Source of the DNA: Ophelia neglecta
Lineage: Eukaryota
DNA length: 64,000 bases
Assembly: GCA_965285935.1 (NCBI GenBank)
Contig: OZ260663.1
Span: 92,876,001 to 92,940,000, forward strand
Direction of reading: 5' to 3'
A program made the position numbers. Shown one piece after another: positions 6,001 through 54,300 of the stretch (within the stretch, counting starts at the first letter, position 1; each line of letters starts with the position of its first letter).

Positions 6001-9000
6001 GACTAGAAACTCGTGCTAATTGAGCATGGTTGATACTTGCAAATGATCTGTAGGAAAGTTGATTTAATAAGGCATTGAAATCGCAAAATGTGTCACCGCT
6101 CCGGCTTGAGTAGGGCAACCTGATATTCACCAACATAGCAAATATCATATGCTAACACCTACTTTGACATGGTTTAGCATGAGGTTAAACATTTAACCTA
6201 ATTTCATAGTCCTTTAGCAGTAAGGAACAAACCGGCTAGGATTATCAGCAGACTAATCAAAGTCTGTGATGAATGTATTACTTAAATTGGTGCTAAAAAC
6301 ACAAAGAAACCCGATGACTCATAGGACAAAACAGAAGTGCCAAGAATAAAAATAAGTTTGAACTAAATAAAATTTAAAATGACCTACTACGAAATGTAAA
6401 AATCGTTTTTTACAAAAATTTTAATTGAGATTTCTCCCGATTATATAAAAGTTAATGTTGCATTGTAGATGGGCTTTTGCCGGTGTATTGTAGTAATGCA
6501 ACCCGATTGAAATGTTGCACCTAGCCGGCTCTGAAGGAGAATACGGCTCCGCGCTACAGGGCGCTACACTACGCCGCGTTACGCCAAGGCGCCCCATGCG
6601 CAGAGGTGCCGGGCCGCGCTTCTCAATGACGGCAGTTGCCGTCAAGCCGACCATCTGAATTGGATGGCAGATAATGATGATGTTAGTATTTTACATATTG
6701 GATCCCTTTTTGATAATCGGATCAGCGCTTGTACAAAACCACCTTCTCACTGTGTCATATAAAAATGGACATTATGAAGTAAAAAAAATTAAACCTTTGT
6801 TGTGGCATCTTGTTTTGCTCAGTCAGGGGACCCTTCCCCTCCATGTTCTTTCCGGGTAAATTGTTAAATTTATGGCATTGACATCGCATGTTGCTTACCG
6901 CACATTGGGACATAATGTTAAATAATACAATTATGTTTCCGCCGAAATAACAAGTATGATGTGAAGCATTACCCACCAAGCGTTCTAGTACGTTAGCAGG
7001 ATCAGAATCCACACTCGTCAAATGGCTAATTAGTCTATTAATTACAAATCGTTTCTCTGCAAAATTATACTTTAACATATTAAAAAGTTAACAAATGTGC
7101 ACCGCAGAATTCCAATTAAAGGCAGTGCCGGGTTTTATAGGTTAAATACCATGCCACACATAGACAAATATTAACTTGTTCAATAATTCAGCCTTCTACA
7201 GGGGGCAGACACCCCTTTAGTTACAGAGTCGAAAGGATTAATCATTGATAACTACTCTGCATGTATGGGTTCAACATGCACTATTGCAGACAACTTCATA
7301 GAAATAAACTATTCTATAAATCCCTAATATCATTGAGACATAGTGGGACCAGTAACCCCAAAATTCTCCTGGTACATTTTGTCATATGCACGAGACTAAA
7401 AGGCACATCGATAATGCTCATCGGTGACAATTAATTTTCCCTTTGCATTATCCTAAGCAGTAAAATATAGAGTGACGAAGAGTAAGGACCAAAGGTCTGT
7501 AAGCAATACTTTGGATTAATAGTATCTTCCTTCTGTATCAGTATTAGCAGTTGCTCATCTCAGAAATGACACGAGGGGCTATTTAGCTAACAAATAAAAA
7601 CAGTTAACAAAAATGATACAAGAAATGATCAGTTAGCTTCAGAAACGGAAAACAGGATATATATCATACGCTTGATCCGAAATTACATTTGATGCCCTAT
7701 TCGCCACCGTAACACCTAAATTTATGATTGGTCTCACAGGCAATACCTTCTCATGCTATATATACGCCGTGTATGTCCGGAAGACAAACAAAAGACTGCG
7801 GATCAGGAATTTTCCAATTATCGGTCCTGGTTCATCCGAAATCACCGAAGATGGTATCAGAAGGCAAGATATGAAGGATGAATCACCATCAATGCCGAAG
7901 GTGATTAAATGTAAGGTTTTAATTTGAACAAGGTAAATGAAGATTTGTTAATCACCAAAATGCAATGGGATGTGGATTTTTCTTTGATACATTGTTGACA
8001 TCTTTTCGAATTGATTATCACGTTCAAGACTTTTTGGTTTTCTTTAAGTGATCATACAGTTGACTAATAACTGTGTTTAAAGCAATGTAATGTTATTATT
8101 CCTGATCATATAATTGTTTTATGTGCCGAGAATATTGTATTGTATTTTCCTTTATTATAGTGACTTGTCTTAGATACAAGGTCAGAATTCATCACACACA
8201 CACAAAAAAACAAAGAAAAGAGTAGACCCAGCCCTCTGGGCTTATAAGTCACTATTCACACTATTACAGGTATATAAACTGAGGCGGAAGGCAAAATACA
8301 CAATAATTCTAATTAAAATACAGAATAGCAGAATACAGATAATACACAGCACGAGGTCAAATGAATCCTAGAATTACTTATAATGTGAGGTACCATTTTT
8401 CTTTTCGCATGGAAAAGGCCCTATTTTGCTGTCTCTATTTGACAGCCTTTGAGATAAACAAACTTCTGAGTGACATCAGGGTTGTCAAACCCATCCATAA
8501 GACAGCAGGCATATGAATATATCAACCTGCGTTGATCCGAGAATAATCTTTTTACCGGGAAAGCCTGGAAGCCGAGCAATTATTTATATATTCCTTAGCC
8601 CCGTGTTTAGCAGAGCAAGTATATACGCTTAGCATCAAAAGGAATGTACGATAATAACCATACGTCTTTCCGGTCCAATCAGACAAACATTCCTTGACAA
8701 TTACGATATACAGAATTAAGATTTCATAACTTTCCCGCCATATTTAGTCCTTTATAAGATATAAATATGAGTGGGTAAAGGATGTAGGTGTGTGGGAGGG
8801 GGGGGGGGGGCATGGACAAATGCCATGGTATGCCACATAATTTAACATAATATGTATAGGATATCAGCAAATTAATTTTGATGGTGCCTGAAAGAATACA
8901 ACGTACGCGCTCACATAAATATGTCTGTTGAAAAAAGTTCTTACGTTAGCATAAGCATATCATAAATCATCATATAGAAAATACCCAAGGTGGAATTAAA

Positions 9001-51300: not shown

Positions 51301-54300
51301 TTATCTGCTTTCAGGAGTGCAGTCACAGTCACATTTTCGAAGAAGACGATCATGTGTCATTCCCTGAATTATGACTAAGAACAAATCGACTTTCTGCTAG
51401 GAAGTGATTATTAGTTTCAGAGAATGCCACCAAGAGGACTTCCAGCGACTTATTCTCAATAATAGATAGGCAAATAATGTATCCTAATACAATCCATTTA
51501 GGTTTTGCATATAAGTTCTTCAGATACGAATGATTTACTATTAATTAGGTGCAGTTATTCTTTGCAAGCTCTAATCAGGGAAGTTAGGTTTAGATTAGTG
51601 ATCCTGTTTCCTCTTTAACTTTCAAGGATGTTTTCCATCCCGCATTAGGCACATGTATATTCAGAAACATTCGTCTGTAGTCTCGCATTTTTGAGAGAAA
51701 TTCGGCAATCGTAGACTCTTTTCATGCATGTTTTATATTCAATCTATCTTGACCACTGGCGCGTTTGCTGTGTTGTATGCCTTAAATCACTAACACTAAT
51801 GTGGACTATGCCAACATGCAAGTGATATATGATGTAAGTTAATAAATTAGCCGGCTTCATCTCTTTACAAGCATATTTACCGTTATGGAACCAGTGGGAT
51901 ATAATTTGCGGGCCTGCAGCTGACGGCTCCTTATGATTTCGAACGATCTCATTGGAAAATTCTTGATTATATGATTTCATTTGTCTGCAGGGTATCTACA
52001 GTTTGACAGGTGAATGGATTTATGCGAGGACAATGCCGGTGCAAAATTAATGGAAGTCCTCTAGTCGGAAAGTTCTCCCAGTCAATTTTAACTTGTACTA
52101 ACCCAAAGCAGGGTGTCCCCGGTCTTTAAAGACTAGCATTCCCCGGTATTGAAACACAGGTCTACTTAGGATCCGTTCCCCAAATCAAGATTTATGGCTT
52201 CCCCCGTTCTTAAATTACTGGCATAGTGCGTCCGCAAGGGATTATTACCCCCAATAAAGGATGGTATAATAAGCATGATATATGTGGGAAGCTAATAGGT
52301 GTGTTTAGTAATGCCTTATAGTTTACATACTATACAGACCGGATACCGCTCCGAGTAGGTCGTGTATCTATTGTACGATCGTTGCAAGTTTTTGTAGTAG
52401 GTTAGGTGCAATTACAACGTAAGATATGGCAATGCTTTCTCTGTTTGTGCTCAGGGGCGAAATGTTAACCCCTTTTTCTATATTAATGCAAGTTTTCTAG
52501 AGAAAATAAGGAATTGTTAATTTGACTCAATCATGATAATTGACTGAACAAATTTATAAGTGGTTGAACAATCAGCAGTATATCTAATTTTATCGCACAT
52601 ACATCATTGTAATCCTGTCTCGGCGGATATATAGAGTAAACATACAAAGTAATATAGTTGCCACTGGCGTCATTCATAGAGGAAACATTTCGTGACAAAT
52701 CGCTTAATAATTTCATGACGCACACAATCGCCTTCATCTTGTTCACAACTTCCACCCCCTTTGGGTATTACTGGATGACTCATCATATGATAATAAACAT
52801 TTGAAACCACGAATAATATTGAGGTCATATGGTATTGTACATAAGCCGATTTACACACAAAAAATTGGATTTTGTCTGTGAGCAATTACATCTGCTAGGT
52901 CAAATGACAACAGAGTGTATCTATTCATGTTTGACATGGCTTCAGTTTGACATAAGCTCGGGTGGAAGCTGATTTTATTAATTAAATATGTAGCTGAAAC
53001 AAGTACTGAAATGGGAATTCATAGGCGGTAGCAATGTGGATAAAGTTCTAGCCAGTACCAACAATATTAAATGTGTAAATGAAGGAATGGGTCTGTTTTA
53101 ACAGTTGATACCAAATGCGGCCTGGCCATGTTGCAACAAAAATAACTATAGGTCAAAACTGATACCCTGGCACTCAGATTGTGCTGTCAGCATTGCCTTC
53201 GATTTAATCTATTTTATGACTTGGATGTGTCACGAGTAAATTCTTAGGAAATACCTTTTTGTACATAACATTTCCGAACAAGATTTGACACGGCCTCTAG
53301 AGACATTGCCACGAGACGCTTCACCATACAGCGCACAATGCAAAGCCTAGCCGCGCTACGGCTCTTCGCTCAACGCCGCGCCTGGCAAAGTCGTGCGTTC
53401 GCTCCAACAACGCTTCCGAGTAGACACTGTATGGGGCTACATGGAGTCCTACTAGTTCGTGTTGGCTAATTACAGTCCATCTATTCAACCATCGAAATAG
53501 CTCGCATGCTATATAATATGTGATGTGTTTCCATAAAATATAAAGATTGAAACAAAGTGCAATGTTACCACTTCGTTCAGACCAATTTTCAGGTGAAATG
53601 CTTTACGACACATACCAGGGGTATATCAGATACTTGTCACTTTATGGGCTGTTAAGAGCACTGACAGCAAAGTCAAACCTGATGATTGAAGAATCATAAT
53701 TTTGGAAATAGTTATAGGACTTTTTTACACCTCGAATCTGATTTATAATATGAACATGTTTAATGTACCCAGACATAATACATGTAGTTCCTATGGTATG
53801 AAAATAAGTATGCATGTAAAGTGCAGTTCGTATCAGCATATTAAGAAATACCAATGAACGTCTTAAAACGTTGAACGGTGTAGATGTCTATAGGTGAATA
53901 TGAAGGAATGTAAGTTAATGATGATTATAATTCCTTTAATCCAAGCATCGCATATTAGAAATTTGCATGGGAAAATGCTCAATATTGTTTGTTTGTCTTG
54001 ACTACCATACGTGTTCCGATTTGTTATGTCAAATATTTAAAACCAGTAGCGTGTAAAGTCCCACGCTCCAATTTCATTATAACTACAGCAGCGTTTAGTA
54101 CTTTGTAGAAACACTAAAATATTTTACAGATTAAACAGTTTATCGTGTTACTAATTAGATCTACTTCTGATCGTGACTATACAAAAGAATTGTCCCTTTT
54201 TACATTTAAAATGTGCAGACCAGTTGATTGGATTGGGTAATTGGGTGGATAACTGTGTGGGCCTTAGTGTGTCTTTAATTTGAATATACATTATATGTTG

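What the first reader, a model, noticed from the sequence alone, without database searches (positions are those of the whole stretch)
6544..53382. Second CpG-rich element held at a near-constant 2.3-2.7 kb inside intron 1 of all six complete genes
Seen: elements at 6544, 15054, 23819, 33879, 43240 and 53315. Distances to the exon-1 donor are about 2.60, 2.31, 2.46, 2.58, 2.66 and 2.56 kb, although the intervening sequence is heavily diverged and carries copy-specific indels. With the upstream boxes, these are the most conspicuous non-coding GC islands. Inference: selection keeps both the element and its spacing, as expected for an enhancer, loop anchor or antisense promoter (compare the antisense promoters in protocadherin-alpha variable exons).
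Basis: partly seen in the sequence, partly recalled or inferred. Interest (0 to 1): 0.75.

Follow-up and report, generated by a model that had tools for sequence, protein, structure and literature searches.

The report
Inherited CpG-dense block in intron 1
Each gene of a tandem lectin-receptor array carries a short CpG-dense block about 2.5 kb into its first intron; the block descends from the ancestral repeat unit and may be a weak regulatory site, but selection on it or on its spacing is not shown.

Summary
Six complete minus-strand genes (signal-peptide exon 1, SUEL-lectin exon 2, six more exons) each carry a roughly 85-bp CpG-dense spike in intron 1. It lies 2611, 2312, 2465, 2581, 2661 and 2557 bp from the exon-1 donor. 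With the promoter boxes, these spikes are the densest non-coding CpG 80-mers in the window.

Copies g1-g5 are clearly homologous: leave-one-out profile E-values run from 6e-8 to 4e-22. The g6 copy is supported by position and composition only.

- Core identity among g1-g5 is 0.58. That is below third codon positions (0.65), exons (0.75) and the promoter box (0.88).
- Conserved columns do not cluster.
- The CpG richness fits neutral decay from a CpG-rich ancestor.
- Spacing variance is nominally low (CV 5% against 12-50% for other non-coding intervals; F-test p about 0.02, Levene 0.13). The contrast rests on a few large indels elsewhere.

I found no Rfam match, tRNA, conserved RNA fold, coding signal, shared terminal inverted repeats, extra copies or CTCF-like consensus.

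Best reading: an ancestral, weakly constrained transcription-factor platform, acting as an intronic enhancer or internal promoter. A neutral relic is almost as likely.

The parts
6544..6628 (.). g1 CpG-dense core (13 CpG per 80 bp, GC 0.72). An AT-rich conserved flank patch lies at about 6482-6530.
   Evidence: leave-one-out E 3.6e-22
15054..15138 (.). g2 CpG-dense core (12 CpG per 80 bp)
   Evidence: leave-one-out E 1.4e-17
23819..23903 (.). g3 CpG-dense core (16 CpG per 80 bp, the densest in the window)
   Evidence: leave-one-out E 9.6e-14
33879..33963 (.). g4 core, half decayed (9 CpG, GC 0.50). Shared CpG columns on the left are replaced by TA, GT or AG.
   Evidence: leave-one-out E 6.3e-8
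43240..43324 (.). g5 CpG-dense core (10-11 CpG per 80 bp)
   Evidence: leave-one-out E 2.6e-14
53315..53426 (.). g6 CpG-dense spike (12 CpG per 80 bp at 53347-53426). It is a positional counterpart; sequence homology is not significant.
   Evidence: E 0.96-10, always + strand
9223..9295 (-). g1 exon 1 coding part (ATG, signal peptide); intron 1 starts at 9222. Equivalent exons: 17434-17506, 26352-26424, 36528-36600, 45969-46041, 55940-56012.
9416..9526 (-). g1 promoter CpG box (the 'upstream box'). Anchors of the other boxes are at 17630, 26547, 36723, 46163 and 56150. Mean identity among g1-g5 is 0.88.
4457..4751 (-). g1 exon 2 (SUEL lectin), with the acceptor G at 4752; the low end follows from the 294-nt exon length. 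Other acceptor Gs: 13194, 21866, 31679, 41934, 50995.
5561..5793 (.). Block B, a second AT-rich conserved island of intron 1. It is present in g1-g4 only (also 14121-14349, 22979-23191, 33332-33557).
63773..63852 (.). CpG peak (9 per 80 bp) 1659 bp inside intron 1 of the degenerate plus-strand copy g8. It matches the element profile weakly, in the orientation expected for an inverted gene.
   Evidence: E 6.4-34 in 4 of 5 runs

Best explanation
The six blocks are copies of one short element: a CpG-dense core of about 85 bp plus an AT-rich flank of about 40 bp. The element already lay about 2.5 kb inside intron 1 of the ancestral gene and was copied with every tandem duplication. It is non-coding, it is not a structured RNA and it is not a dispersed repeat within this window.

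Inferred, not shown: its most likely role is a compact transcription-factor platform, probably unmethylated. That would make it an intronic enhancer or an internal promoter. It shares the word GCCGCGNTAC with the promoter box in inverted orientation, so transcription from it would run back towards the gene's own promoter.

Constraint is weak or lapsing. The sequence has drifted about as fast as third codon positions, the g4 copy is half decayed and the g6 copy is barely alignable.

The near-constant distance to the donor comes mainly from common descent. In addition, no large insertion or deletion has hit the donor-proximal 2.6 kb, whose first 0.3-1 kb is itself conserved. Selection on the spacing is not needed to explain it.
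For: Copy number and position. There is one copy per gene in 6 of 6 complete genes, always on the same strand and in the same order relative to the exons.

Homology. The omitted copy was recovered in 5 of 5 leave-one-out searches.

Not a dispersed repeat. No further copy scores below E = 0.39 on either strand of the window, and blastn of g1 intron 1 gives hits at collinear positions only.

Relative conservation:
- In g1 the element is the only internal intron block covered by 4 of the 5 other copies.
- In pairwise global alignments among g1-g5 it reaches the 93.6th percentile or higher of 85-nt windows in 4 of 10 pairs.
- Identity falls from 0.59 in the core to 0.31 in the adjoining 14 alignment columns.

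Composition. It is a sharp GC spike of 61-72% in 32-41% flanks, with CpG observed/expected of 1.24-1.8 against 0.85 for the window.

Shared word. GCCGCGNTAC with up to 1 mismatch occurs 12 times against 3.2 expected (0 of 100 shuffles reach 12). Six matches are in the elements, all on the + strand. Five are in promoter boxes, all on the - strand. One is elsewhere.

Context. Intron 1 holds other conserved non-coding islands: the donor-proximal 300-1000 nt and block B.
Against: - Core identity among g1-g5 is 0.58 (range 0.43-0.72). That is below exon 2 third codon positions (0.65), exon 2 overall (0.75) and the promoter box (0.88). Against g6 it is 0.42.
- The element is at the 78th percentile in g1-g2 and the 34th in g3-g4. 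In 2 of 10 pairs the global aligner did not pair the elements at all.
- Conserved columns do not cluster: lag-1 autocorrelation p = 0.72, best 12-column window p = 0.14.
- A neutral simulation starting from a 16-CpG copy gives 8.3-11.9 CpG after 0.2-0.5 substitutions per site. The observed 9-16 therefore needs no selection.
- Most CpGs of g1-g5 are inherited at shared columns; they are not renewed.
- The shared 10-mer is a short CpG-rich word. I picked it after seeing weak profile hits, and the paralogous copies are not independent.
- A profile of promoter plus exon 1 finds no element at E <= 10.
Confidence: 0.4

Rival explanations
1. Neutral relic. The ancestral intron held a CpG-rich stretch with no present function, such as the end of an old transposon insertion, a dead promoter or a dead exon. 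All copies have been decaying since. The stretch still stands out because it started very GC-rich in an AT-rich intron, and the common position is simple inheritance.
For: - Identity is 0.58, no higher than third codon positions at 0.65.
- The CpG counts fit neutral decay.
- CpGs are inherited and lost in a copy-specific way, by CG to TG, CA or TA changes in g4 and g5.
- Conserved columns do not cluster into footprints.
- Pairwise alignments of g1 with g2, g3 and g4 all stop at the same outer edge of block B (g1 intron positions 3635-3637). The stretch of about 1 kb from the element to block B could therefore be one old insertion.
- In g1-g2 the spacing changed more on the donor side than on the acceptor side.
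Against: - In distant pairs the element aligns while most of the surrounding intron does not: 96th-99th percentile in g1-g3, g1-g5 and g3-g5.
- g6, whose intron is otherwise 98.6% unalignable, still has the only other non-coding CpG peak of at least 10 per 80 bp, and it is at the expected place.
- There are no shared terminal inverted repeats.
- None of the 7 intron-1 reading frames of at least 85 aa has a Pfam domain.
- There are no extra copies in the window.
Confidence: 0.35
2. Protocadherin-alpha-like design. The promoter box and the intronic element form a pair of convergent promoters or architectural-protein sites. Antisense transcription from the intronic element would license the gene's own promoter and allow stochastic choice among array members.
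For: - The layout is two CpG-dense elements per unit, a promoter box plus a downstream element.
- The GCCGCGNTAC word is on opposite strands in the two classes.
- The element profile gives recurrent weak minus-strand hits on promoter boxes in 4 of 5 leave-one-out runs, at E 3-49.
- The design exists in mammals: passages of bioRxiv 10.1101/360206 describe convergent promoters at the promoter and exonic CTCF sites (pCBS, eCBS) and CpG demethylation.
Against: - A recalled CTCF consensus with up to 2 mismatches hits 4 sites, at chance level (4.29 expected). None is in an element or a promoter box.
- The second element lies in an intron, not in a coding variable exon.
- These are whole tandem genes, not variable first exons spliced to shared constant exons.
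- Constraint on the element is weak.
- No expression data exist here.
Confidence: 0.08
3. Recombination or gene-conversion hotspot. GC-biased gene conversion between paralogues would both enrich GC/CpG and keep the copies similar, with no regulatory function.
For: It would explain a local GC spike together with locally raised similarity.
Against: - There is no recent conversion tract. The best pairwise identity is 0.72 over 83 columns, or 78% in a 122-nt blastn hit.
- CpGs are being lost in g4 and g5, not gained.
Confidence: 0.05
4. An unannotated small RNA gene or small exon.
For: It is short, GC-rich and present once per intron. ATG-initiated reading frames of 15-29 codons start at the conserved CATGCG on the plus strand in four copies (read from the sequences printed; no call computed them).
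Against: - Rfam gives 0 matches at gathering thresholds over the whole window, and 0 at E <= 1 on 6300-6800.
- ARAGORN finds 0 tRNA genes.
- The RNAalifold covariation term is unfavourable on both strands, at +0.52 and +1.68.
- Only 2 of 12 single-sequence folds reach z <= -2.
- The ends of the short reading frames differ between copies, and the minus-strand frames of g1 and g6 are unrelated, E = 0.22.
Confidence: 0.03

Closest known systems
Intragenic ('orphan') CpG islands and first-intron enhancers or alternative promoters (category recalled from general knowledge, not from a call)
   Same: It is a CpG-dense, GC-rich block inside intron 1, downstream of the main promoter. It is non-coding and is retained in paralogues.
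   Different: It is only about 85 bp long. Five of the six copies fail the 200-bp screen I used (GC >= 0.55, observed/expected >= 0.6, >= 8 CpG), which is stricter on GC than the usual criteria. The surrounding genome is barely CpG-depleted, at observed/expected 0.85. No chromatin or transcript evidence is available.
Protocadherin-alpha pCBS/eCBS convergent promoters (bioRxiv 10.1101/360206; passages read)
   Same: A clustered array of cell-surface receptor genes in which each unit has a conserved promoter element plus a second CpG-containing element a short distance downstream. A shared word lies on opposite strands in the two elements here.
   Different: There the second site is a CTCF site inside the coding variable exon, and antisense transcription has been shown. 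Here the element is intronic, shows no CTCF-like consensus and has no transcription data. The units here are complete genes.
Conserved non-coding elements retained after gene duplication (category recalled)
   Same: It is an island of residual similarity in otherwise diverged paralogous introns.
   Different: Identity is 0.58, no higher than third codon positions at 0.65, so purifying selection is not demonstrated.

Membership tests
CpG island (classical length and composition criteria, recalled) | At least 200 bp with high GC and CpG observed/expected >= 0.6 | tested here: not met
   With 200-bp windows (GC >= 0.55, observed/expected >= 0.6, >= 8 CpG) only the g1 site (6451-6700) qualifies, 1 of 6. 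The dense core is about 85 bp.
CpG island (classical length and composition criteria, recalled) | Unmethylated in the germ line or in tissues | not testable with these tools
   No methylation data. Observed/expected of 1.24-1.8 in the cores is compatible with it but does not prove it.
Protocadherin-alpha-type convergent promoter pair | CTCF-binding consensus in both the promoter element and the downstream element | tested here: not met
   The recalled consensus CCASYAGRKGGCRS with up to 2 mismatches gives 4 hits against 4.29 expected, none in elements or promoter boxes. The motif is recalled, and the organism's factor is unknown.
Protocadherin-alpha-type convergent promoter pair | The second element lies inside the coding variable exon | tested here: not met
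   The element lies 2.3-2.7 kb inside intron 1 and 1.3-2.3 kb from exon 2.
Protocadherin-alpha-type convergent promoter pair | Antisense transcription starts at the second element | not testable with these tools
   No transcript data.
Transposable-element fragment (MITE, SINE or LTR) | Dispersed extra copies | tested here: inconclusive
   There are no extra copies in the 64-kb window on either strand. The rest of the genome and a repeat library were not available.
Transposable-element fragment (MITE, SINE or LTR) | Terminal inverted repeats, a tRNA-like head or transposon-derived coding remnants | tested here: not met
   Only copy-specific 10-15-nt inverted repeats, with no shared sequence. 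No tRNA genes. None of 7 intron reading frames has a Pfam domain.
Structured non-coding RNA | Rfam family match or a conserved fold with covariation | tested here: not met
   Searches give 0 matches. Searches give unfavourable covariation terms. In one search the z-scores run from -2.35 to +1.84.
Conserved non-coding element under purifying selection | A substitution rate clearly below a neutral proxy | tested here: inconclusive
   Core identity is 0.58 against 0.65 at third codon positions. The element does rank at or above the 93.6th percentile of intron windows in 4 of 10 pairs.
Spacing-constrained element pair | Length variance significantly below that of comparable neutral intervals | tested here: inconclusive
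   Variance/mean is 6.1, against 15-173 for six other intervals holding non-coding DNA. F-test p = 0.02, log-scale p = 0.007, Levene p = 0.13, on six related copies.

The most novel reading that the evidence does not exclude
The promoter box and the intronic CpG block form a per-gene pair of convergent promoters or architectural sites. The pair would govern which member of this lectin-receptor array a cell expresses. That would be an independently evolved counterpart, in an apparently non-mammalian genome, of the protocadherin-alpha choice module built from a promoter site and an exonic site.
Probability: 0.07. Interest if true: 0.8.

Novelty: new member of a known kind. Interest (0 to 1): 0.3.

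Why it matters
If the block is functional, it marks a second regulatory element that was copied with every gene of a fast-evolving receptor array. It would then be a starting point for asking how members of such arrays are switched on individually. If it is a relic, it is a useful caution: similar position and high CpG density across tandem paralogues follow from common descent alone and need no selection.

Tried and rejected
- Six-way global MAFFT alignment of intron 1. It misplaced the g5 element, so I replaced it with pairwise local and global alignments.
- Rfam at gathering and E-value thresholds, ARAGORN, RNAalifold on both strands and single-sequence folds. None gave an RNA signal.
- Recalled CTCF-like and NRF1-like consensus scans. 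Both were at chance level, with no hit in the elements.
- Search for common terminal inverted repeats. None found.
- Pfam scan of the 7 intron-1 reading frames of at least 85 aa. Nothing found.
- Comparison of the minus-strand frames through the g1 and g6 elements. Unrelated.
- Promoter plus exon-1 profile against the window. It finds the promoters and the degenerate g8 copy but no element.
- k-mer sharing between promoter boxes and elements. Only short CpG words are shared, and I judge that not significant on its own.
- Taxon and family identification, exon by exon. The cytoplasmic exon gave 0 hits in the search for homologous proteins. It gave 3 weak hits (E 6e-5 to 4e-4) among 1.84 billion representatives: a Branchiostoma protein, a leafhopper protein and one unnamed fragment. 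The lectin exon gave 0 hits. The organism stays unknown.
- Literature search for this gene architecture (listing only). Nothing relevant.
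Full report
**Source and scope.** The window has no N. It is 37.7% GC with CpG observed/expected of 0.85. Exon-wise protein searches found no close relative in sets that include NCBI and UniRef proteins. I therefore do not take the window for human, and the organism stays unknown. Gene models were searched exon by exon only. The joined (spliced) protein was never assembled or searched, so family assignment of the whole protein remains open. The closed collections were not used, and genome contigs holds prokaryotes only and was not queried. 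No sequence from outside the window could be brought in for the element.

**Anatomy.** The window holds a tandem array with a period of 8.3-10.6 kb.
- Six complete genes (g1-g6) lie on the minus strand. Each has an exon 1 with ATG, 24 codons plus 1 base and a GTAAGT donor. Each has an exon 2 matching Pfam SUEL_Lectin, tested on g4 and g6 at E 1e-8 to 1e-9. Six further exons include a transmembrane exon and a cytoplasmic exon of about 165 aa.
- g0 contributes only its exon 1, at 954-1026.
- g7 is inverted. It has exons 2-8 on the plus strand from 58439 and no recognisable exon 1.
- g8, on the plus strand, has a degenerate exon 1 of 23 nt at 62091-62113, against 73 nt in the other genes. Its promoter box is CpG-depleted.

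Intron 1 measures 4471, 4240, 4486, 4849, 4035 and 4945 nt. The distance from the element to the acceptor is 1792, 1860, 1953, 2200, 1306 and 2320 nt. Among all 80-mers of the window the six sites reach the 99.05th to 99.99th percentile of CpG count. The 10 peaks with at least 10 CpG are 5 elements, 4 promoter boxes and 1 coding exon; the g4 element has 9. Each core is a sharp spike in AT-rich flanks.

**Homology.**
- Blastn finds the element in 5 of the 10 pairs among g1-g5.
- Leave-one-out profiles recover the omitted copy as the best non-training hit in 5 of 5 runs, at E 3.6e-22, 1.4e-17, 9.6e-14, 6.3e-8 and 2.6e-14.
- The g6 site is never significant: E 0.96-10 in the leave-one-out runs, where it is the best remaining hit in 2 of 5, and E 3.2 as the best non-training hit of the full profile. 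Its claim rests on strand, position and being the only other non-coding CpG peak of that density. In the forced alignment only 1 of its 12 CpGs falls in a column shared with two or more other copies.
- A weak match in the orientation expected for an inverted gene lies 1659 nt inside g8's intron. The 2.3-2.7 kb position of g8 lies beyond the end of the window, and that of g0 lies before its start.

**Is it conserved beyond its surroundings?** Only modestly.
- Mean pairwise identity among g1-g5 is 0.88 for the promoter box, 0.75 for exon 2 and for the exon 1 coding part, and 0.58 (range 0.43-0.72) for the element core. Against g6 the core is 0.42.
- Exon 2 third codon positions are 0.65 among g1-g5 and 0.45-0.56 against g6.
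- In pairwise global alignments the element's percentile among 85-nt intron windows is 77.6, 99.1, 86.4, 99.0, 93.6, 34.1, 96.4 and 82.5. In the two further pairs, g2-g4 and g2-g5, the aligner did not pair the elements.
- From g1's viewpoint only three intron regions are covered by three or more other copies: positions 1-431, the element (four copies) and block B.
- Conserved columns do not cluster. The best 12-column window reads CGCnnCATGCGC-like, with p = 0.14, and the lag-1 autocorrelation has p = 0.72.
- In g1-g5 most CpGs sit at shared, inherited columns. g4 and g5 have lost several.
- In a simple neutral simulation I started from the richest copy and drifted it towards the window's approximate base composition. 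It yields 11.9, 10.4, 9.3 and 8.3 CpG after 0.2, 0.3, 0.4 and 0.5 substitutions per site. The observed counts therefore need no selection.

**Spacing.** For the element-to-donor distance the CV is 4.8% and variance/mean is 6.1. Six other intervals that hold non-coding DNA have variance/mean of 62, 15, 84, 173, 59 and 146 and CVs of 12-50%. Intervals that are purely exonic have CVs of 3-4%. The contrast with the element-to-exon-2 interval gives F = 8.0 (p = 0.02), p = 0.007 on the log scale and Levene p = 0.13. The sample is six related copies, and the contrast is driven by g5 (short) and by g4 and g6 (long). In g1-g2, the pair with the most alignable intron, the donor-side distance differs by 299 nt and the acceptor-side distance by 68 nt. 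Local-alignment offsets inside the donor-side interval swing by up to about 450 nt. The first 0.3-1 kb of the intron is itself conserved, and the last 750-1000 nt before exon 2 align in no pair. My reading, which is inference, is that the constancy is mostly common descent together with the absence of large indels. Selection on length is neither needed nor excluded.

**What it is not.**
- No Rfam family matches and there is no tRNA gene.
- There is no conserved fold.
- Copies share no terminal inverted repeats, the intron reading frames carry no Pfam domain and no coding similarity exists between copies.
- Neither the element nor block B has extra copies in the window.
- The recalled CTCF-like and NRF1-palindrome consensus sequences are absent from the elements.

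**A lead.** GCCGCGNTAC with up to 1 mismatch occurs 12 times against 3.2 expected. Six matches are in the elements, all on the plus strand. Five are in promoter boxes, all on the minus strand. The element profile also gives weak minus-strand hits on promoter boxes in 4 of 5 leave-one-out runs. The word is short and CpG-rich, I chose it after seeing those hits, and the copies are paralogous. I treat it as a hint that one factor may bind both elements in opposite orientation, not as a result.

**Comparison with protocadherin-alpha.** The preprint 10.1101/360206 (passages read) describes convergent promoters at the promoter and exonic CTCF sites (pCBS, eCBS), antisense lncRNA transcription and CpG demethylation. 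The resemblance here is limited to the layout of two elements per unit. Two defining features fail, the CTCF consensus and the exonic position of the second site, and the third, antisense transcription, cannot be tested here.

**Verdict.** The feature is real and ancestral, and it is one of three conserved non-coding islands in intron 1. The most likely reading is a weakly constrained regulatory platform (confidence 0.4). A neutral relic is nearly as likely (0.35). It is ordinary in kind, and I score interest at 0.3.

Noticed in passing
9416-9526, with equivalents anchored at 17630, 26547, 36723, 46163, 56150 and about 1111-1241: The promoter CpG box is more conserved among g1-g5 (0.88) than the coding exons (0.75). 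It is recognisable in 7 copies, with long invariant runs.
   Followed up: partly
Intron 1 positions 31-40 in g0-g6, for example about 9181-9190: CGCCATTTTG is exact in g1-g5, with one-base variants in g0 and g6, just inside intron 1. It resembles a YY1-type site; that name is recalled and was not tested.
   Followed up: partly
5561-5793, 14121-14349, 22979-23191, 33332-33557: Block B is an AT-rich conserved island (68% mean column identity) in intron 1 of g1-g4. It is absent from g5 and g6. Alignments of g1 with g2, g3 and g4 all end at the same outer edge.
   Followed up: partly
First 300-1000 nt of intron 1 in g1-g5, and the last 750-1000 nt before exon 2: The donor-proximal intron aligns in all g1-g5 pairs. 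The acceptor-proximal part aligns in none.
   Followed up: partly
37785-37879: An extra, diverged copy (67%) of the transmembrane exon lies in the long g4-g5 spacer. It suggests the remains of a lost gene.
   Followed up: no
58439-61514 (+) and 61952-62254 (+): g7 is inverted and has exons 2-8 but no exon 1 in the window. g8 has a 23-nt exon 1 in place of 73 nt and a promoter box that has lost its CpGs. Both are probably pseudogene-like copies.
   Followed up: partly
34071-34198: g4 has a second CpG peak (8 per 80 bp) about 290 bp from its decayed element. It has a 28-nt inverted repeat (79% complementary) and an ACAGCGC word.
   Followed up: no
Whole window: All 11 occurrences of ACAGCGC are on the plus strand. 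Six are in promoter boxes, three in the g5 and g6 elements, one in g4's second CpG peak and one in an exon.
   Followed up: partly
3483-3496, 11998-12011, 20340-20353 (-): The CTCF-like consensus matches fall in the homologous coding exon of g1-g3 (reading PPEGA). The overall count is at chance level.
   Followed up: no
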